Virus record (IMG/VR): IMGVR_UViG_2939521961_000011
Reading direction: 5' to 3' (one strand)
DNA length: 64,000 bases
From: a virus
Taxonomy: Duplodnaviria; Heunggongvirae; Uroviricota; Caudoviricetes
Numbering within the stretch: the stretch's first letter is position 1; each line of letters opens with the position of its first letter. Of this stretch, positions 44,318 to 51,453 are shown one piece after another. A program made the translations under genes and the position numbers. The notes under the pieces are model-generated. The model had not been told where the DNA came from. It saw nothing but the letters and a program-made list of their open reading frames with translations, and made no database searches.

Positions 44318-44785
44318 TCACGGTATACACTGGGTACGGATATATTCCTGTGCTCCTTCCAGTTGCTTCTGCATTGCCATCAGCCGTTCTCTGAGGATGA
44401 AATAATCCCGTTCAGCGGCTTCTGCCAGTCGGGGACCGGTTGCATTATCCACGCCGGAGGTGATGGGGGCTTTACGCAAGGAGCCTGGACAGTTGGCGTT
44501 GATGCGCAGGCGCTTACGACCAGCGGCAACATCAGCACGCAGAGTTTCATTTTCAGCTCTCGCATCGGCTAATTCCCTCGAGTATCTGGCATCAAGTGCA
44601 GCGACATCACGCTGGCGTATCTGCATATCAGTAATTGTCGCGTTCGCCAGCTCCAGCTCACTGGCTTTTTTATCGCGCTGCTCTTTGTAGATGATGGCGT
44701 GATCACGGTAATGATTCAGCCCCAGACTAAGCGCACCACAGGCCACCAGCAGGACAATGATAACCACGCACAGAACACGGTTCAT
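44318..44785 (-). CDS. Rz: i-spanin Rz
   Basis: N-terminal TM anchor plus coiled coil; Rz1 embedded in the +1 frame. Confidence 0.85.
   Translation of the reverse strand: MNRVLCVVIIVLLVACGALSLGLNHYRDHAIIYKEQRDKKASELELANATITDMQIRQRDVAALDARYSRELADARAENETLRADVAAGRKRLRINANCPGSLRKAPITSGVDNATGPRLAEAAERDYFILRERLMAMQKQLEGAQEYIRTQCIP
44380..44565 (-). CDS. Rz1: o-spanin Rz1 (lipoprotein) embedded in Rz
   Basis: Lipobox LPLVVSAC and proline-rich PPSPPAW tract, as lambda Rz1. Confidence 0.8.
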   Translation of the reverse strand: MRELKMKLCVLMLPLVVSACASTPTVQAPCVKPPSPPAWIMQPVPDWQKPLNGIISSSENG

Positions 44786-45116
44786 ATCACCACCAACGGA
44801 TTGCCCAGACCAGAACAGCAATGGCCACAATACGAATGGCAAAAGCTGCCGCTCTTGTTAAATCCAGACTGGCGTCTCCACTTCAATGCCTTTCATAATG
44901 GACAACCTCAGAAAGAATCTTTTATACTTCCTCACAGGGAAAGTACCTCCCTACCCATAATTTCTCCCTTGCCTTACTCAAGGTCAGAAAACACAAAACC
45001 CCGCTTGCTGCCAACAAACGGGTTTTTTACTTTTATTCACTTAGGTTTTACCAGTTTTCAGGATTTCGTGTTATCCACCCGCGTTGGCCAACGTCATTTT
45101 TCAGGAAAATATTCTG

Positions 45117-45650
45117 CTATCTGTCGATGTCCCAGCACGCCAGCGCGCTCTCCTGGTCACGCCGTGAGACCTGACCGTAGCAATTATTTGAACGGATACG
45201 GCAGTCTCTGCCACCGTCCTTAATCCACCAGCGAATCGCCTCACAGGCACCTTTTCGATCGCCTGCATTAATTCGTTTATAAAACGTCGACGGGAAGCAC
45301 TTACCGGGGCCAATGTTGTACGGACAGAATGACGCGATCCCCGCTTTCTGGGGTTCGGTCAGCGGCACCCGGATGTTTTTCTCCACCCATGCCAGCGCCT
45401 TATCACGTTCAATAGCGTTAACCTGGTCGCATTTTTCCTTCGTCAGTTTCATGCCAGGAATAACAGGCTTACCATCCACCCGGGTGGCTCCACGGCAGAT
45501 GGTCCAGATACCCGCACCATCACGGTATGCCGTGGTGTGGTTACCTTCCTTTTCATCCAGAAACTGGTCGAGGATTTCAGGCGCAGACGCCCCTGCACCA
45601 ATCAGCGCCAGAACGGCAGCCGACAGGCCGTATTTGATTTTTGCGTTCAT
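45117..45650 (-). CDS. R: SAR endolysin R (T4-lysozyme fold with N-terminal signal-anchor-release segment)
   Basis: Hydrophobic Gly/Ala-rich N-terminus, lysozyme catalytic region, phage 21-type. Confidence 0.85.
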   Translation of the reverse strand: MNAKIKYGLSAAVLALIGAGASAPEILDQFLDEKEGNHTTAYRDGAGIWTICRGATRVDGKPVIPGMKLTKEKCDQVNAIERDKALAWVEKNIRVPLTEPQKAGIASFCPYNIGPGKCFPSTFYKRINAGDRKGACEAIRWWIKDGGRDCRIRSNNCYGQVSRRDQESALACWDIDR

Positions 45651-45780
45651 GGATATTTATCAGGATTTATCGGTTCCGAATCCCTGGATATGTTAAGCCT
45701 TCACCCCACCAGTGGTGGGCACTGGCGGGTTCTTAATTTCCCCGGATGATCGTGGATTACATTCCACCAGGAGATTACTT

Positions 45781-46413
45781 ATGCTTATCTATCCAGCGGC
45801 AGACCTCCGTTTACAGGGACGCAGAGCACAACCATGGGATAAAACAACCACTCATAAATATCGTCCCGGTCAATATTATGACTTTCGTAAACACCCGGAA
45901 CTGATCGAGACACACCTTGAGGATTTTGTTGAATATTCAGACAGACAAGCGATTCAGACCTTTTTTTCTTTTGTTAAGTGGATCAACAGCAATTCATCTG
46001 CATTCGAGAGCACGGACTGCATGTTTTCAGGAACACCAAAGGTTGATGAATACGCCCCGGTATTTGGTTGCACCCATGCGTCATCTGGCCGCTTCGAATT
46101 TTTGTTTCGCGATACGAAAATAAACCAAAATGAGCGAGCTGTCGGATGGGTACTTAACAAACTATCGCTCTACCTTCAGAAAGAACGGCCCGATTTTTGT
46201 AAAGGAACCTTTGGCATCGTTCCCCTCATGACGGAATATACCGACTCCGGCGGTAACGAGTTCACCGGTTATCGTATTTGTGTCTATTTCGATGCTTACG
46301 GGAATGGAACAGAGGATACCTGGACTTCTCTCAACATCATGTTTGATGGCCTCATGAAAGCCACCAAAAGAATGAGCAATGAAACAATCACTGGCGAGAT
46401 GCGTCCCCTTTAA
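45781..46413 (+). CDS. hypothetical 210-aa protein, antisense to the lysis operon
   Basis: GGAG RBS before ATG; AT-rich; overlaps the 3' end of the convergent 263-aa ORF by ~250 bp; no family recognized. Confidence 0.4.
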   Translation: MLIYPAADLRLQGRRAQPWDKTTTHKYRPGQYYDFRKHPELIETHLEDFVEYSDRQAIQTFFSFVKWINSNSSAFESTDCMFSGTPKVDEYAPVFGCTHASSGRFEFLFRDTKINQNERAVGWVLNKLSLYLQKERPDFCKGTFGIVPLMTEYTDSGGNEFTGYRICVYFDAYGNGTEDTWTSLNIMFDGLMKATKRMSNETITGEMRPL

Positions 46414-46953
46414 AAAATTATCCAGAATCTCACTATTTGCAGAGCGCTCTCTGTTTTTTTGAATACGGAAACACTCTGCGAGATTTCTGCTCATCACTTT
46501 CCGGCAATAATCGTAAAACGCCGCGAACTGCTCATCACGGCGTTTTTTTTCACCTTCGGAAGGGATCTGCACCGACAGTTTTTTATTCAGTTCAACGACG
46601 CTGTTCTCCAGTTTTTCAATGCGTGATTCGATATCATCTTTTTCTGACTGTATCGTGTTATATGCATTGTTAATTTGTATGGTATACCGCTCTTCTGAAC
46701 AGAGGCGCTTTTCCGGCAACGGTTCGTTCCCTTCACATAACCCGGCAGCAATATCCATGAAAAACTGCTTCGCCTTCTTTTTCGCCTCAGCTTCGTAAAA
46801 CTCCAGCGGGGCACCTTCAACACGATCAAGATCAATCACCACATTTGGCAACAACAGTGACGTATACCCACCAGTTTCCAGCGCCACAGTAACAGTAATC
46901 TTATCCGGGTAAATATTTATCCCTTTAACAACCAGTTCGTATTGTTTATTCAT
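46162..46953 (-). CDS. hypothetical 263-aa protein translationally coupled to the holin
   Basis: ATG 3 nt after holin stop with GGGGAG RBS; coiled-coil-like centre; no family recognized. Confidence 0.5.
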   Translation of the reverse strand: MNKQYELVVKGINIYPDKITVTVALETGGYTSLLLPNVVIDLDRVEGAPLEFYEAEAKKKAKQFFMDIAAGLCEGNEPLPEKRLCSEERYTIQINNAYNTIQSEKDDIESRIEKLENSVVELNKKLSVQIPSEGEKKRRDEQFAAFYDYCRKVMSRNLAECFRIQKNRERSANSEILDNFLKGTHLASDCFIAHSFGGFHEAIKHDVERSPGILCSIPVSIEIDTNTITGELVTAGVGIFRHEGNDAKGSFTKIGPFFLKVER

Positions 46954-46956
46954 CGT

Positions 46957-47163
46957 CTACTCTCCCCGCGCCGCCTTACGACGGTCCTCTCTGATTTTGA
47001 AATACAGGTTAGTAAGATACGTCAGCAGGCCAAACAGCAGACTCCCCAGCACACCTATCGCCACCCACTGGGACGGAGAGACTTTGTCCAGCAGCTGCAG
47101 TAACCAGTATCCCGTCCCCACCGCTGACGTGGTGTATGACACACCTGTTGTGATTTTTTCCAT
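46957..47163 (-). CDS. S: holin S (phage 21-type pinholin)
   Basis: 68 aa, two TM segments, charged C-terminus [13 protein letters not shown]. Confidence 0.85.
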
Positions 47164-47340
47164 CTGATGTATGTCTCCGTCACCGCCGACAGAAAATGAA
47201 AGTAAAGAAAAACAAAAAAGCCGCCAGTGTCACCCACTGACGGCCAACGCCGGGAGCCGTGATTATGGCATTCAGGCTCTGCTAAAAATGCCAGATAACA
47301 TTCCGGCCTCCCCTGATTCAGGTTATAAATGACACAATAT

Positions 47341-47610: not shown

Positions 47611-49461
47611 TTATGCTGCCGGTGCATTTATCTCCAGCATCAGACTTTCTATCTCAACGCCATACGCTGCATTTTTTGTAACATCCGTCAGCGTCAGCGC
47701 ATTCAGTCCCAGTGTCAGACTGTCTTTTATAACCTGGAATGCCGGGCCAGCCACTCCATTCAGTTTCGGAGTAACCGTGGCACTGCCGGCGGTGAACACC
47801 AGCTCCAGCGTCTGCCAGTCGTTACCGTAATCGCCGAACTCCCCCAGCTTCGTGTTTCCGGCTTTCCTGTGATGCATCAGATTCACTCTGCCGTCAGTGG
47901 TCTGAGTGAAGTACGACATCAGGAACGGATTACCGGTACCCGTCATCGCCACACCATCAGGAACGGGAGCATCTGTATACAGATAAATCCCCAGCCCGAA
48001 CTGATTGTTGGTCAGTGCGCCTGACAGGCGGAACTTACAGGTCAGTCTGCCGCCCTGTGTCAGCAGGGTAATTGCGTCATCCACCGGATGCGTCAGGGAC
48101 CAGGTTTTATTGCTCTGCTTGGTGATCTTAAATACACCATCTGACAACTGAATTCCGCCATCCTTAATGCTCCAGCCCTGCGCAGCAGCCTCTCCGGCTG
48201 CCGGCAGCAGGGAGATTGTGCGAACGGACGTATCTGCAGACGGACCCGATGGCGTGTTGCCGCCGGGCGAGGGTTTGATTTCCGGTGCCTTACCACTGAT
48301 GAAGGCGGAGGTGCGCCCGGCTGCGTTCAGAATAGCGGTTGCCAGACGATCCGGAATAATGCTCCTGCGCGCCCATGAACTGAAATGTGTCGGGCGGTTT
48401 GATGATACCTGGTTTCCATTCGTTCTCGATGCCGCACCGTAATATCCTGATGCCGGAATATCCGGATCTTCTGCCGGCGCGTTAGTGGCGGTATTGACAC
48501 CGTTACCGTCTGTCATGAAGGGCACAAAATAAACGCCCTCACTCTCCCTGTTTTTATACCCGCCGTACACGGTGTCGTACTGGGTAGCGTATGTATTTTT
48601 CCAGTAATACGTCGTGTCACCACAAATCCACGGCACATCTGCAGCACTGCCACCATGGCACTGCGCGTTAAACACGGAGAGGTCAGCACGAAACTGTGTC
48701 AGCATGGCTGTAAACAGCGCAGGTTGCTGTGCGTGGGTGGCGGCGCTCATGTCAAACTCTCCCTGCATCCAGCACACCGCCAGCAACACATTTTTCGGGT
48801 TCTTCTGTAATGCAGCTTTAGTGCGCGCAATCAGGTCCTGATATAACGGTTTACCCACACCCCAGCGTGCCGAATCCTGGCTGGCCCCCGTGTCCGCACT
48901 GAATGTCCCCTCCGCGCCCTGGGTGAATGCCGAACCACCACGACAGCATGGTACCAGCAGGATCCCCGCGTTATTCGGGATATACGGGAGCAGTTTTTTG
49001 GCAATATGTAACCCCTGGCCGACACAGCCGTACTGCCCTTTGCTCAGGTCTGCCTTCGGATGATTCAGCGTACTCATATCCTGCACATCATGCAGGCAGT
49101 GGTCGGCCGGAATAATATCGTTATATCTGCAGGCAGCCCCACCCGGCGTCACTGTACTGCGGCGCGCCAGCTGTTTAATGCGCGGATCCGGAGCATCGTA
49201 TGAATCCGGCAGCGGAAGCCCTTCACCGTAAGCCATGGCATTGGACTGCCCGGCCAGTACGATGACGTAGTACCACTCCGGCTCAGTTGCACCACTGACC
49301 ACCACATCACCTTCTGCTGTAATCGCCTGCATCAGGGTATAAGGGGTTATGGCCACCGGACTCCCAAACGGCTGCCAGCCCTCTTTCAGTTTGTGTGTCA
49401 GCTTTTCCGCAAGGTCTGACGGCGACGCCGCCCTGACAACATCATAATGTTTAAATGTCAT
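47611..49461 (-). CDS. nanS-p: NanS-p-like 9-O-acetyl sialate esterase (DUF1737 N-terminus plus SGNH/SASA esterase), intact
   Basis: 616 aa; GQSNAMAYG motif; position between Q and S as in Stx-type phages. Confidence 0.75.
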   Translation of the reverse strand: MTFKHYDVVRAASPSDLAEKLTHKLKEGWQPFGSPVAITPYTLMQAITAEGDVVVSGATEPEWYYVIVLAGQSNAMAYGEGLPLPDSYDAPDPRIKQLARRSTVTPGGAACRYNDIIPADHCLHDVQDMSTLNHPKADLSKGQYGCVGQGLHIAKKLLPYIPNNAGILLVPCCRGGSAFTQGAEGTFSADTGASQDSARWGVGKPLYQDLIARTKAALQKNPKNVLLAVCWMQGEFDMSAATHAQQPALFTAMLTQFRADLSVFNAQCHGGSAADVPWICGDTTYYWKNTYATQYDTVYGGYKNRESEGVYFVPFMTDGNGVNTATNAPAEDPDIPASGYYGAASRTNGNQVSSNRPTHFSSWARRSIIPDRLATAILNAAGRTSAFISGKAPEIKPSPGGNTPSGPSADTSVRTISLLPAAGEAAAQGWSIKDGGIQLSDGVFKITKQSNKTWSLTHPVDDAITLLTQGGRLTCKFRLSGALTNNQFGLGIYLYTDAPVPDGVAMTGTGNPFLMSYFTQTTDGRVNLMHHRKAGNTKLGEFGDYGNDWQTLELVFTAGSATVTPKLNGVAGPAFQVIKDSLTLGLNALTLTDVTKNAAYGVEIESLMLEINAPAA

Positions 49462-50031
49462 TATTCCTCCCGGCCGGGATAGTGTATTAAATCAGATATG
49501 GAGTGGGCTGTAGTCCGGAAGCCTGAATGACACACGGGGACTACAGCCCAAGAAATGAAAAAAGGCCACGCAGTTGCGCAGCCTGATAAACCCTGGTTAA
49601 AATCCACACGATAACAACACAACAATATCAGTATCTCATGCTATTGCCCGAACCCATTCGGGCATTTTTTACCCATAAAAAAGCCCCTCCGGAGAGGGGC
49701 ATGTTTGCATGCACATTCTTTTTCTTGCATGGTGCCGGGTGCCTCCCGGTGAATTCAGTATCAGCACCTGAATCCGCGATTATCACATATACCTGGTTGC
49801 TGATTGCCCCTCCGCACAGGGGGATTCACCATGCAGTAGTATTTTTAATAAACAGTAAACAAAAAAATCAAGCATTATGCAGGCTGTTTCTTTTTATCAC
49901 CGGCCACAGCAATACCACAATGCCGCAGACCAGCACCCCATCCGCCAGCACCGACATGATTCTGCTGGTGAAATCCACCATCACCACCAGAAACAGCAGG
50001 AGTGCAGCCACAGCCAGGCGCAGTTTTACCG

Positions 50032-50410
50032 TCACTGGTGATTCTCCAGACGAAGACCCAGAACACCGGCAATCTCTTCCAGCACCTTGCGCTCTTCCGG
50101 CTCAATTTCGCCGTCTGCCTCCGCAATGGCCACCGCCACATCCAGCACATCTTCCGCTTCACGCGTATCGTGTTTCACATCCTCGATCTCACGTAACGCC
50201 GCACGACGACCAATTTTAAAGTTCGTATCCAGCTGACCGATAATGGTTGCGCTAATCGCATTAATTTCTGACGTAAACGCGGACAGCGCAGGCTGATTAC
50301 GCAGTACCTGTTCGATCTTCGCTTTCTAGGAAGCCTCACATTCACCATCTGCACAGGCCACCAGGTAGGCAGCATTAATAACCGCCTGTGCCAGATCGCG
50401 TTTCTCAAAC
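50032..50410 (-). pseudogene. TerB-like gene remnant: in-frame TAG at 50326-50328 and divergent 5' end
   Basis: Aligns with 1085-1516; GAG (Glu) in copy 1 is TAG here; start region replaced. Confidence 0.65.
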
Positions 50411-50527
50411 TTTCCTTTTTCCGGTTAACGTGACACACCAATAACTCTTGTCGAAAAAGCCAGCAAGCTGAAAGACCGGTATTCACAACCACCAGCGCGT
50501 TTACTGTACTGGCGTGATTTCAGTCAT

Positions 50528-50553
50528 AAAAAAACCCGCCTGGCGACGGGTGT
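50528..50553 (-). terminator. tR'-like terminator downstream of Q2
   Basis: GC hairpin followed by T7 on the minus strand. Confidence 0.55.
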
Positions 50554-50631
50554 AAAAAATCTTCTAACGTCAGGCATAAAACGCCCATCGTTAGGGCAAA
50601 TTTACCACAGATTCGGGAAAAATCAACAAAG

Positions 50632-51453
50632 CTATCTGGTCACCTTTTTCAGTTGTTGTTCTGCCCATGCTTCTTCAATATCAAACTGCACCACCAGCGT
50701 ATCGTAAAAACGTTTAACTGTTTTTTTCCATGTATCAAGAGATATGGCATCGGTTACATTACATATGGCATTAAATGCCTCCGTTGAAGGTAATCTTTCA
50801 TAGCCACGACCACCACAACGCTGGCAGTCTCTGATAACAGGCATACCACGTTTTACCGACTCTTCACGATGAATGGCAACACCGCGCCCACGACAATCTT
50901 TACAGGCGGTGGAAACCTCCCCCTTCCCTCCACACTCCGGACAGGCAACTTTTACCACCTCCCTGACTTTTTTCCATTCCTCCCAGTAAGACGGATACAC
51001 GCCTTTTGTGCACTTTGCCCACACTGGCGGCTTACCATCCGGATACTGGATCTTGTTTGTAAAAACCTCGCTTTCAATAAATTTTTTTCCGTGACAACAG
51101 GGGCACTGTTTTTTGCTCGCCGCGCTACGGGCATAATCTTCAAACGCATACGAAGCCATAATACGCATCACTGCCGGTTTTATTTCTGCCGGGAGTTTTC
51201 TTAACGCCGCCACGCGATCACACCGACTGAGTGCATATTCTGTCAGCAATTCTGTTGCCCGCTCTCTGTCATTCATACTAATGCCCATTTTCCCAAGGAA
51301 CGCAGAAAACCCCATCTCAGCCCAATTCTGTGTCATGCCCTGCGCGGCCATCACATCAGTGATACTCAGCGTATCTTTCGACGTTGAGGCCGATGCATCA
51401 GTCAGGCCGGGGGATTTTGGGGAGTAGTATTTCGGTAAATCTTCCAGTTTCAT
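50632..51453 (-). CDS. Q: late antiterminator Q, second allele
   Basis: 273 aa; Cys-rich zinc motifs; followed by tR' and late genes. Confidence 0.8.
   Translation of the reverse strand: MKLEDLPKYYSPKSPGLTDASASTSKDTLSITDVMAAQGMTQNWAEMGFSAFLGKMGISMNDRERATELLTEYALSRCDRVAALRKLPAEIKPAVMRIMASYAFEDYARSAASKKQCPCCHGKKFIESEVFTNKIQYPDGKPPVWAKCTKGVYPSYWEEWKKVREVVKVACPECGGKGEVSTACKDCRGRGVAIHREESVKRGMPVIRDCQRCGGRGYERLPSTEAFNAICNVTDAISLDTWKKTVKRFYDTLVVQFDIEEAWAEQQLKKVTR

What the first reader, a model, noticed from the sequence alone, without database searches (positions are those of the whole stretch)
45651..46956. AT-rich two-gene insertion between pinholin and SAR endolysin, with convergent overlapping ORFs
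In phage 21-type lysis cassettes the holin is followed directly by the endolysin. Here about 1.3 kb of AT-rich DNA separates them. A 263-aa ORF (46162-46953, minus) starts 3 nt after the holin stop behind a GGGGAG RBS, so it should be translated with the holin. A 210-aa ORF (45781-46413, plus) with its own GGAG RBS runs antisense to the lysis operon, and the two 3' ends overlap by about 250 bp on opposite strands. I recognize neither protein. The position suggests an undescribed lysis-timing, exclusion or abortive-infection module.
Basis: partly seen in the sequence, partly recalled or inferred. Interest (0 to 1): 0.8.

Follow-up and report, generated by a model that had tools for sequence, protein, structure and literature searches.

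The report
Two genes on opposite strands
Between the holin and endolysin genes of an E. coli prophage lie an ordinary ydfR-type gene and a small mobile cassette in which one stretch of DNA appears to encode two proteins, one on each strand, a rare arrangement that standard annotation leaves out.

Summary
The ORFs, ribosome-binding sites, 252-bp convergent overlap and lower G+C are all as described.

The premise is partly wrong. A DUF1327/YdfR gene between an S21-type holin and its endolysin is commonplace (K-12 Qin essQ-ydfR-rrrQ; phage BP-4795).

What is unusual is a 777-bp cassette (45727-46503):
- **Gene A** (45781-46413, +, 210 aa) is real. It belongs to an unnamed family of at least 251 clusters. 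It has no Pfam, PADLOC or PDB relative, and its confident AF2 model matches no known fold.
- **ORF B** (about 89 aa) lies antisense and in register inside A's last 82 codons.

Evidence that B is coding in A's Enterobacterales prophage relatives:
- The B frame is open in 7 of 9 lineages (combined P about 2e-10).
- B has its own SD and start codon.
- Its stop is conserved, toggling between TAG and TAA.
- A's synonymous divergence falls from 0.83 to 0.54 exactly over B.
- B survives where A is broken, and the reverse also occurs.

In this window B has no start of its own. It is fused in frame to the DUF1327 gene, giving the 263-aa ORF. A always opposes the phage late operon and B always runs with it. 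Function is unknown, and a lysogeny/lytic strand switch is only inferred.

The parts
46957..47163 (-). S21-type (class II) holin, 68 aa
   Evidence: PF04971 Phage_holin_2_1, E 8.8e-33. PGAP annotates it as 'class II holin family protein'.
46162..46953 (-). 263-aa mosaic ORF, translationally coupled to the holin gene. It combines a DUF1327/YdfR domain, a coiled-coil module and a B-homologous tail.
   Evidence: ORF listing and sequence. PF07041 covers aa 1-96. The full-length phrog_2091 profile covers only aa 1-168. The ORF is 84% identical to the 169-aa DUF1327 protein of PhiR12_1 over aa 1-167. PGAP annotates only aa 1-83, as a pseudogene fragment.
46666..46953 (-). DUF1327/YdfR N-terminal domain (aa 1-96 of the 263-aa ORF)
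   Evidence: PF07041, 116 bits. It is 38% identical to K-12 YdfR, E 3e-20.
46162..46434 (-). B-homologous segment (aa 174-263 plus stop). It is the late-strand ORF nested antisense, in register, inside gene A. Here it has no start codon of its own (AGT where relatives have ATG).
   Evidence: Coordinates. It aligns with stand-alone 89-104-aa ORFs in relatives. Statistical tests.
45781..46413 (+). Gene A: a 210-aa cytosolic protein of an unnamed widespread family, transcribed against the late operon.
   Evidence: Full-length homologs at 53-65% identity. At least 251 clusters at 50% identity. pN/pS 0.23-0.48. AF2 pLDDT 90.3.
45770..45773 (+). GGAG Shine-Dalgarno of gene A, 7 nt before the ATG
   Evidence: Sequence. 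Every relative has an SD at the same place.
46439..46461 (+). Terminator-like hairpin plus T7 run, 26 nt after A's stop. It lies inside the linker of the 263-aa ORF.
45727..46503 (.). Swappable cassette (A/B), as delimited against phage PhiR12_1. That phage has 303 bp with a convergent DUF1823 gene in its place.
   Evidence: blastn breakpoints; annotation.
45682..45697 (+). Motif CCCTGGATATGTTAAG, 85-100 nt upstream of A. It is conserved in the tail-region cassettes as CCYGGGTATGTTGNNN. It may be a regulatory or -35-like element.
   Evidence: Upstream sequences compared by eye. No consensus sigma-70 promoter was found.
45117..45650 (-). Endolysin (lysozyme) with a SAR-like N-terminus
   Evidence: PF00959, E 3e-25. 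The N-terminal GLSAAVLALIGAGASA segment is seen in the translation; the SAR reading is by inspection only.
44318..44842 (-). Rz spanin, with Rz1 nested at 44380-44565
   Evidence: PF03245, E 4e-46; ORFs. PGAP places the Rz start to give 44318-44785.

Best explanation
The S-R gap contains two things.

**1. A ydfR-type late gene (shown).** It carries a DUF1327 domain and is translationally coupled to the pinholin gene. It is a routine resident of this position in lambdoid prophages.

**2. A mobile 777-bp moron cassette that codes on both strands.**
- Gene A (210 aa, + strand) belongs to an old, widespread, uncharacterised family of cytosolic alpha/beta proteins. It has its own SD and terminator and always points against the phage late operon. 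This is shown.
- ORF B (about 89 aa) was overprinted on the complementary strand of A's last 82 codons, within the Enterobacterales prophage branch of the family. It always points with the late operon. This is strongly supported by comparative evidence. Translation itself has not been shown.
- In this window B has lost its own start and is fused in frame to the DUF1327/coiled-coil gene. The 263-aa ORF is therefore YdfR-domain + coiled coil + B, made together with the holin.

**Inferred mechanism.** While the prophage is silent, only A can be expressed. On induction, Q-antiterminated late transcription runs through the cassette. That would oppose A's expression by convergent transcription and antisense pairing, and at the same time would produce B. 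B may act on or replace A during the phage's own lytic cycle. What A does biochemically is unknown. Exclusion, defence or host modulation are guesses based on its positions.
For: **A is a real gene**
- Five or more full-length homologs at 53-65% identity.
- At least 251 family clusters.
- Substitutions run third position >> first > second, with pN/pS 0.23-0.48 along the whole gene.
- AF2 pLDDT 90.3, including the overlapped part.

**B is under selection**
- The frame is open in 15 of 16 distinct sequences. It is also open in Symbiopectobacterium and Xenorhabdus.
- Shuffling synonymous codons within the gene gives P(open) of 0.00015-0.09 in each of the seven lineages where B is open. Seven of nine lineages are open, for a combined P of 1.8e-10.
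- B has its own SD plus ATG or GTG, 3-14 codons before the antisense of A's stop, in at least 7 different upstream contexts.
- The B stop is the antisense of A codon L128. That codon is CTA (6 sequences) or TTA (5) wherever B ends there, and CTG only in L004, where the B frame is broken. Control Leu columns use five different codons.
- A's synonymous divergence is 0.83 in codons 1-127 and 0.54 in codons 129-210. The bootstrap CI of the difference is 0.19-0.39, and the lowest 82-codon block starts at codon 128.
- B is intact where A is deleted or truncated (L060, L063). A is intact where B is broken (L004).
- An outgroup family member from Nitrospira (GC 0.48) has 4 antisense stops in the same stretch.
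- Gene callers call B in Enterobacter and Yersinia.

**Orientation**
- A opposes and B follows the late genes at five or more insertion sites: S-R, Q-S, tail I-J, after the tape-measure gene and before it.

**Fusion**
- B stays in frame in three different E. coli fusion architectures of 263, 161 and 178 aa.
Against: - There are no expression data of any kind.
- The in-register antisense frame is the one most prone to long shadow ORFs.
- A-frame selection is clearly stronger than B-frame selection. B-frame pN/pS is 0.7-0.86 in the overlap against 0.8-1.1 in the control region. NN/NS is 0.65 against 0.76, which is not significant (bootstrap P 0.15).
- The lineages are related, so the combined P assumes synonymous saturation.
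- No promoter was found for A.
- In this window B has no start of its own, so the tail could be an accidental read-through. PGAP treats the gene as a pseudogene.
- The switch/antidote model has no direct support. There is no PADLOC hit.
Confidence: 0.6

Rival explanations
1. B is only a shadow ORF. A would be the sole gene of the cassette. The 263-aa ORF would be a ydfR-type gene whose stop was lost when the cassette replaced its 3' end, so that it reads by accident through the antisense of A.
For: - The frame is the in-register antisense frame, in which only TTA, CTA and TCA give stops.
- The full-length phrog_2091 profile ends at aa 168.
- PGAP calls the gene a pseudogene.
- A-frame selection dominates everywhere.
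- The window copy of B has no start of its own.
Against: - Stop avoidance is specific to the 3' part: 4 of 61 Leu/Ser codons are stop-forming there, against 27 of 96 in the 5' part (Fisher P 8e-4). The shuffle test gives P 1.8e-10.
- SD and start codons are conserved in non-coding DNA beyond A's stop.
- The B stop is conserved and toggles between CTA and TTA.
- There is a step in synonymous divergence at codon 128.
- B is retained in L060 and L063, where A is broken.
Confidence: 0.2
2. The constraint on A's 3' third acts at the RNA level. It could be a structure or an antisense-RNA pairing region that controls A or passage of the late transcript. No protein B would be involved.
For: - Synonymous divergence in A is reduced over codons 115-210.
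- The transcripts converge by design, and a terminator-like hairpin follows A.
- Lambdoid phages use convergent antisense RNAs such as oop against cII (my own knowledge).
Against: - RNA structure does not explain stop-codon avoidance in one particular frame, a conserved stop that toggles TAG/TAA, or an SD and ATG at a fixed place.
- There is no Rfam match.
Confidence: 0.1
3. One reading: a dedicated lysis-timing, superinfection-exclusion or abortive-infection module placed in the lysis cassette.
For: - The DUF1327-B ORF is coupled to the holin gene.
- A homologs sit in prophage hot spots, once next to Kiwa (KwaA/KwaB) and once next to sodC.
Against: - The cassette is not tied to lysis genes. 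It also sits between tail genes I and J and beside the tape-measure gene.
- Most of the A family is chromosomal in soil and water bacteria, with no conserved partner.
- There are no PADLOC hits.
Confidence: 0.15

Closest known systems
YdfR (DUF1327, PF07041) of E. coli K-12 prophage Qin, and the 'YdfR family protein' of Stx phage BP-4795
   Same: - The N-terminal domain is the same: PF07041 at 116 bits, 38% identical to K-12 YdfR.
- The position is the same, directly after the holin gene and before the endolysin gene.
- YdfR was reported to bind the catalytic half of RNase E through its first 72 residues and to pull down RNA (PMC13232886).
   Different: The ORF here is 263 aa, against 103-114 aa. 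It carries an added coiled-coil module, as in the 169-aa PhiR12_1 form, and a 90-aa tail that is the antisense of gene A.
Antisense overlapping genes reported in E. coli O157:H7 (nog1, laoB, ano, asa, pop; PMC4683798, PMC5810103, PMC5960689, PMC6294744, PMC7103648, PMC9927249)
   Same: A short young ORF is embedded antisense in an older gene, apparently by overprinting, and is left out by annotation pipelines.
   Different: - Those cases rest mainly on RNA-seq, Ribo-seq and phenotypes in one strain. This case rests on comparative evidence across several genera and has no expression data.
- Here the pair travels as a mobile prophage cassette with a fixed orientation relative to the late operon.
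- Here the overprinted ORF is repeatedly fused to a neighbouring late gene.
Lambdoid morons (for example lambda bor near the lysis genes and lom in the tail region; my own knowledge)
   Same: It is a small, lower-G+C, present-or-absent unit inserted between late genes. It has its own SD and terminator and occupies the same hot spots.
   Different: No promoter was identified. A is cytosolic rather than an envelope protein. The cassette appears to code on both strands.
Self-protection pairs such as P22 sieB/esc, and convergent antisense control such as lambda oop against cII (my own knowledge)
   Same: The logic of the inferred model is the same. A prophage function is neutralised during the phage's own lytic growth, and convergent overlapping transcripts set the choice.
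   Different: esc is an in-frame internal product on the same strand, and oop is non-coding. No activity of A or B has been shown here.

Membership tests
DUF1327 / YdfR (PF07041) | Match to the Pfam model above its gathering score | tested here: met
   116.3 bits against a cutoff of 25, covering aa 1-96.
DUF1327 / YdfR (PF07041) | Gene lies between the holin and endolysin genes of a lambdoid prophage | tested here: met
   Same order as K-12 essQ-ydfR-rrrQ and BP-4795 S-YdfR-R.
DUF1327 / YdfR (PF07041) | Small protein of about 100-115 aa (or 160-185 aa in the long form) | tested here: not met
   The ORF is 263 aa. The full-length phrog_2091 profile ends at aa 168. The remainder is the B-homologous tail.
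DUF1327 / YdfR (PF07041) | Binding to the RNase E N-terminal domain (reported for K-12 YdfR) | not testable with these tools
   Known only from PMC13232886.
Phage 21-type lysis cassette | S21-type class II holin | tested here: met
   PF04971, E 8.8e-33.
Phage 21-type lysis cassette | Lysozyme-type endolysin with a SAR N-terminus; Rz with nested Rz1 | tested here: met
   PF00959 and PF03245 hits. The Gly/Ala-rich N-terminal segment and the nested 61-aa ORF are visible. The SAR property itself is inferred by inspection.
Phage 21-type lysis cassette | Holin gene directly followed by the endolysin gene | tested here: not met
   The two genes are 1306 bp apart.
Antisense overlapping gene pair | Both ORFs intact, with the embedded ORF kept open in homologs beyond chance | tested here: met
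   Open in 15 of 16 sequences. Shuffle test P 1.8e-10. The outgroup is closed.
Antisense overlapping gene pair | Conserved start signals and conserved stop of the embedded ORF | tested here: met
   SD plus ATG or GTG in at least 7 contexts. Stop toggles CTA/TTA. In this window the ORF's own start is absent and is replaced by the fusion.
Antisense overlapping gene pair | Purifying selection on the embedded frame | tested here: inconclusive
   pSN falls from 0.83 to 0.54, which is significant. NN/NS is 0.65 against 0.76, which is not significant. B-frame pN/pS is 0.7-0.86.
Antisense overlapping gene pair | Transcription and translation of both frames | not testable with these tools
   Needs strand-specific RNA-seq, Ribo-seq or tagging.
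Prophage moron | Present-or-absent unit between conserved phage genes, with deviating composition | tested here: met
   Replaced by a DUF1823 unit in PhiR12_1. Found at five or more different sites. G+C 0.43-0.47.
Prophage moron | Own promoter and terminator | tested here: inconclusive
   A terminator-like site is present at 46439-46461. No sigma-70 consensus promoter was found here or in relatives.
Known anti-phage defence systems / toxin-antitoxin | Match to a model of a described defence or TA protein | tested here: not met
   No PADLOC, Pfam, NCBIfam or PHROG hit for A. No Pfam hit for B.

The most novel reading that the evidence does not exclude
The A/B cassette could be a self-contained strand-switch module. 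One piece of DNA would encode a lysogeny-phase protein (A) on one strand. On the complementary strand it would encode, codon for codon, a lytic-phase protein (B) that neutralises or replaces A. Late transcription would then shut A off and supply its antagonist in one step. B would be a de novo gene born by overprinting inside a mobile prophage moron and spread across Enterobacterales.
Probability: 0.15. Interest if true: 0.85.

Novelty: new variant of a known kind. Interest (0 to 1): 0.6.

Why it matters
Long antisense overlapping genes in bacteria are still disputed, mostly because the evidence comes from expression data in single strains. This cassette offers an independent, comparative case with several separate lines of evidence:
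- stop avoidance in the embedded frame;
- conserved start and stop signals;
- a step in synonymous divergence exactly at the boundary of the embedded ORF;
- reciprocal loss, with each gene surviving where the other is broken;
- a closed outgroup.

The case spans at least six genera (Escherichia, Salmonella, Enterobacter, Yersinia, Xenorhabdus, Symbiopectobacterium).

It is also directly testable in inducible prophages of clinically important STEC strains.

The work flags an unnamed protein family of at least 251 clusters with no known fold relative. It also shows that RefSeq leaves about 1 kb of the O26:H11 reference prophage without any annotated gene.

Tried and rejected
**Function of A**
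- Pfam, PHROGs, NCBIfam and PADLOC gave nothing for A.
- Pfam on 109 family members gave only two stray single-member hits.
- A profile search of PDB sequences gave nothing.

**Fold of A**
- The first AF2 model, from 5 sequences, was mediocre (pLDDT 68.7).
- The second, from 90 sequences, was good (pLDDT 90.3).
- BFVD gave TM-scores of 0.37 or less.
- The afdb50 library was not available.

**Genomic context of distant A homologs**
- Contexts are heterogeneous, with no conserved partner. Guilt by association therefore failed.

**Database scans**
- An IMG/VR scan with distant-family patterns found nothing. The close-family scan worked.
- The plasmid collection gave one distant hit only.

**Regulatory and RNA signals**
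- No sigma-70 consensus promoter lies upstream of A, here or in 10 relatives.
- Rfam gave nothing.

**Interim conclusion later revised**
- After I concluded that only the + strand is selected and that the tail is a plain shadow ORF. I revised this once 16 more loci showed the antisense frame to be systematically open.

**Alternative explanations considered**
- Recombination (a younger 3' part) could explain the drop in synonymous divergence. I consider it unlikely, because non-synonymous divergence hardly changes (pN 0.28 against 0.25).
- The IS3-disrupted copy says nothing about selection.
Full report
**Where we are.** The window is identical to a lambdoid prophage of E. coli O26:H11 str. 11368 (NC_013361.1) and of many other STEC genomes. 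It is 99.9% identical to Stx1a phages such as Stx1_14040. In 11368 this prophage carries TerB and DUF3927 genes where stx would lie. The late operon runs on the minus strand. Its order is Q, tRNAs, a nanS-p-type esterase (47611-49461), an S21-type holin (46957-47163), the region in question, a lysozyme-type endolysin (45117-45650), Rz/Rz1, and terminase.

**The observation.**
- The 263-aa ORF lies at 46162-46953 (-). It starts 3 nt after the holin stop, behind GGGGAG.
- The 210-aa ORF lies at 45781-46413 (+), behind GGAG.
- The two overlap by 252 bp.
- G+C is 0.43-0.47, against 0.52-0.56 in the flanks.

**The minus-strand ORF is not an unknown protein.**
- Residues 1-96 are a DUF1327/YdfR domain (PF07041, 116 bits).
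- A DUF1327 gene between holin and endolysin is ordinary. K-12 Qin has essQ-ydfR-rrrQ and Stx phage BP-4795 has S-YdfR-R. Similar DNA occurs in 1354 of 5426 complete E. coli genomes.
- The full-length profile of the long form (phrog_2091) covers only residues 1-168. The 169-aa protein of phage PhiR12_1 aligns over residues 1-167 and then stops.
- Residues 169-263 are therefore extra. They are the part that lies antisense to the plus-strand ORF.
- PGAP annotates only codons 1-83, as a pseudogene fragment. It annotates nothing at all from 45651 to 46704.

**The true insert.**
- Against PhiR12_1, homology breaks at 45726/45727 and at 46503/46504. The 777 bp between these points are replaced there by 303 bp carrying a convergent DUF1823 gene.
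- Against Stx2_14040, window 46595-46948 is replaced by 49 bp, in frame. This removes the DUF1327 domain and leaves a 161-aa ORF with the same tail.
- The cassette is present in 132 of 5426 complete E. coli genomes and is nearly always unannotated.

**Gene A (45781-46413, +) is real.**
- It has full-length homologs at 53-65% identity in Salmonella and in metagenomes.
- A profile search of 1.84 billion representatives finds 251 clusters, nearly all of about 200 aa.
- None of 109 members has a relevant Pfam domain, and there is no PDB sequence relative.
- Residues R15, P18, E47, D48, D79, N115, G163 and G174 are invariant across 90 sequences.
- Substitutions between homologs run third position >> first > second. 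pN/pS is 0.23-0.48 along the whole gene, overlap included.
- A terminator-like hairpin plus T7 run follows the stop (46439-46461). No consensus promoter was found.
- In soil and water bacteria the family is chromosomal, with no conserved neighbour.

**Where the close relatives sit.** In Enterobacterales the gene is always in prophages and always points against the late genes. The sites are:
- the S-R gap (this window);
- the Q-holin region of a Salmonella P22-like prophage, next to Kiwa, and of another E. coli prophage;
- between lambda-type tail genes I and J;
- after a tape-measure gene (L058) and before one (L057, L063);
- next to sodC in a Salmonella remnant.

**The antisense frame.** With five sequences I first concluded that only the plus strand is selected. 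Antisense pN/pS was 0.7-1.0, as in the non-overlapping control part. Sixteen further loci from IMG/VR changed the picture.

The frame is the in-register antisense frame, so only A codons TTA, CTA and TCA can create stops in it. Over A's last 82 codons this frame is open in 15 of 16 distinct sequences, always ending at the same place.

Five lines of evidence argue that this ORF, called B here (about 89 aa), is maintained.

1. *Stop avoidance.* I shuffled synonymous codons within each gene, which keeps both protein and codon usage. The chance of no stop in the 3' part is 0.00015-0.09 in each of the seven lineages where the frame is open. Seven of nine lineages have none, and the Poisson-binomial P is 1.8e-10. 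The same genes carry 3-14 antisense stops in their first 127 codons.
2. *Start signals.* In L009, L010, L045, L051, L056, L057, L058, L060, L061, L063 and L070 an ATG or GTG lies 3-14 codons before the antisense of A's stop. It sits in DNA that is not A-coding and is preceded by GGAG, AGGAGG or AAGGA at 4-9 nt.
3. *Stop codon.* A's invariant L128 is CTA in 6 sequences and TTA in 5. These are the two Leu codons that read as stops on the other strand. It is CTG only in L004, where the B frame is otherwise broken. Invariant Leu columns in the 5' part use five different codons.
4. *Synonymous constraint.* A-synonymous, B-non-synonymous divergence is 0.83 over codons 1-127 and 0.54 over codons 129-210. 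The bootstrap CI of the difference is 0.19-0.39. In a sliding window the step falls at codons 111-130, and the lowest 82-codon block starts at codon 128. Non-synonymous divergence barely changes (0.28 against 0.25).
5. *Reciprocal loss.*
   - In L060, A has lost residues 16-96, but B (104 aa, AGGAGG SD) is intact.
   - In L063, A has lost its N-terminus, but B is intact.
   - In L004, A is intact and the B frame has three stops.

Three further observations fit.
- A Nitrospira family member (30% identical, G+C 0.48) has four antisense stops in the same stretch. B is therefore confined to the Enterobacterales prophage branch.
- High-G+C members are uninformative.
- Gene callers have predicted B in Enterobacter and Yersinia.

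**Limits of that evidence.**
- A-frame selection is clearly the stronger of the two.
- The NN/NS contrast for the B frame is not significant (0.65 against 0.76; P 0.15).
- The lineages are related.
- There are no expression data.

**What this means for the window.**
- Here B has no start of its own. The codon where L056 has ATG is AGT, and the sequence reads SEILDNFLKG against MEALDDFLKR.
- Instead the DUF1327/coiled-coil gene runs in frame into B. The 263-aa ORF is YdfR domain (aa 1-96), coiled-coil module (to about aa 167), a short linker containing A's terminator, and B (aa 174-263; 46434-46162).
- E. coli also has 161-aa and 178-aa coiled-coil-B fusions and a stand-alone 104-aa B.
- B thus stays in frame in three different fusion architectures, which a junk tail would not be expected to do.

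**How it most likely works.**

*Shown:* the gene order, the DUF1327 identity, the cassette boundaries, the reality of A, and the fixed orientation of A and B.

*Strongly supported but not shown:* that B is translated and selected.

*Inferred:*
- With the late operon silent, only A can be expressed.
- After induction, antiterminated late transcription crosses the cassette. It opposes A's transcript and yields B, here as a fusion made together with the holin.
- B may antagonise or replace A.
- The YdfR part may act on RNase E, as reported for K-12 YdfR (PMC13232886).

A's biochemical activity is unknown. Its conserved Arg, Glu, Asp and Asn residues suggest a binding or catalytic site.

**Comparison with what is known.**
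- The DUF1327 part is a known family of unknown function, in its usual place.
- The cassette behaves like a moron.
- The A/B arrangement belongs with the antisense overlapping genes reported in EHEC. It differs from them in that its support is comparative and spans several genera, it is mobile, and it keeps a fixed polarity to the late operon.

I rate it a new variant of a known kind, with interest 0.6.

Noticed in passing
L007:9618-11257: In the Salmonella P22-like prophage, the A homolog lies in the Q-to-holin region. About 3 kb away on the same strand is a Kiwa defence pair (KwaA, KwaB).
   Followed up: no
window 45682-45697 (and 45655-45672): Motifs CCCTGGATATGTTAAG and TTTATCAGGATTTATCGG upstream of A recur upstream of A in the tail-region cassettes (L009, L010, L045) and in L060. 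The cassette's conserved left end therefore reaches almost to the endolysin start codon. This may be a regulatory site.
   Followed up: partly
window 45651-46704: RefSeq (PGAP) annotates no gene at all in this ~1 kb of the O26:H11 11368 reference genome. In most of the 132 E. coli genomes with the cassette, the feature list under A reads 'none'.
   Followed up: yes
L059:1234-2447 (E. coli 07_3722): An IS3-family element has inserted into gene A at the position equivalent to about window 46040, leaving a 100-aa annotated N-terminal fragment.
   Followed up: partly
L003:2163-2423 (phage PhiR12_1): The alternative cassette at the same site, DUF1823 (86 aa), is also convergent to the DUF1327 gene and overlaps its 3' end by 53 bp. 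Convergent overlap therefore seems to be a property of this hot spot.
   Followed up: no
L060:4498-5043: In another E. coli prophage the coiled-coil module is attached to a different N-terminal domain, not DUF1327. It sits directly upstream of a stand-alone B, in the Q-holin region. In E. coli the coiled-coil module and the A/B cassette therefore seem to travel together.
   Followed up: partly
window 47219-47245 (-): A strong terminator-like hairpin (11 pairs plus a T run) lies on the late strand between the nanS-p esterase gene and the holin gene. Late transcription would have to read through it.
   Followed up: no
window 44787-44896: PGAP marks a frameshifted hypothetical gene between the endolysin gene and Rz. 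The mechanical ORF list instead gives a longer Rz with a TTG start at 44842.
   Followed up: no
window 45705-45719: A near-perfect inverted repeat, CCCACCAGTGGTGGG, lies between the endolysin start and gene A. It falls in the part shared with PhiR12_1. No T run follows it on either strand.
   Followed up: no
window about 50000-51400 (L066:408-1679): Where Stx phages carry stxAB, downstream of Q and the Ile/Arg tRNA genes, this prophage has two small hypothetical genes, a TerB-family gene and a DUF3927 gene.
   Followed up: no
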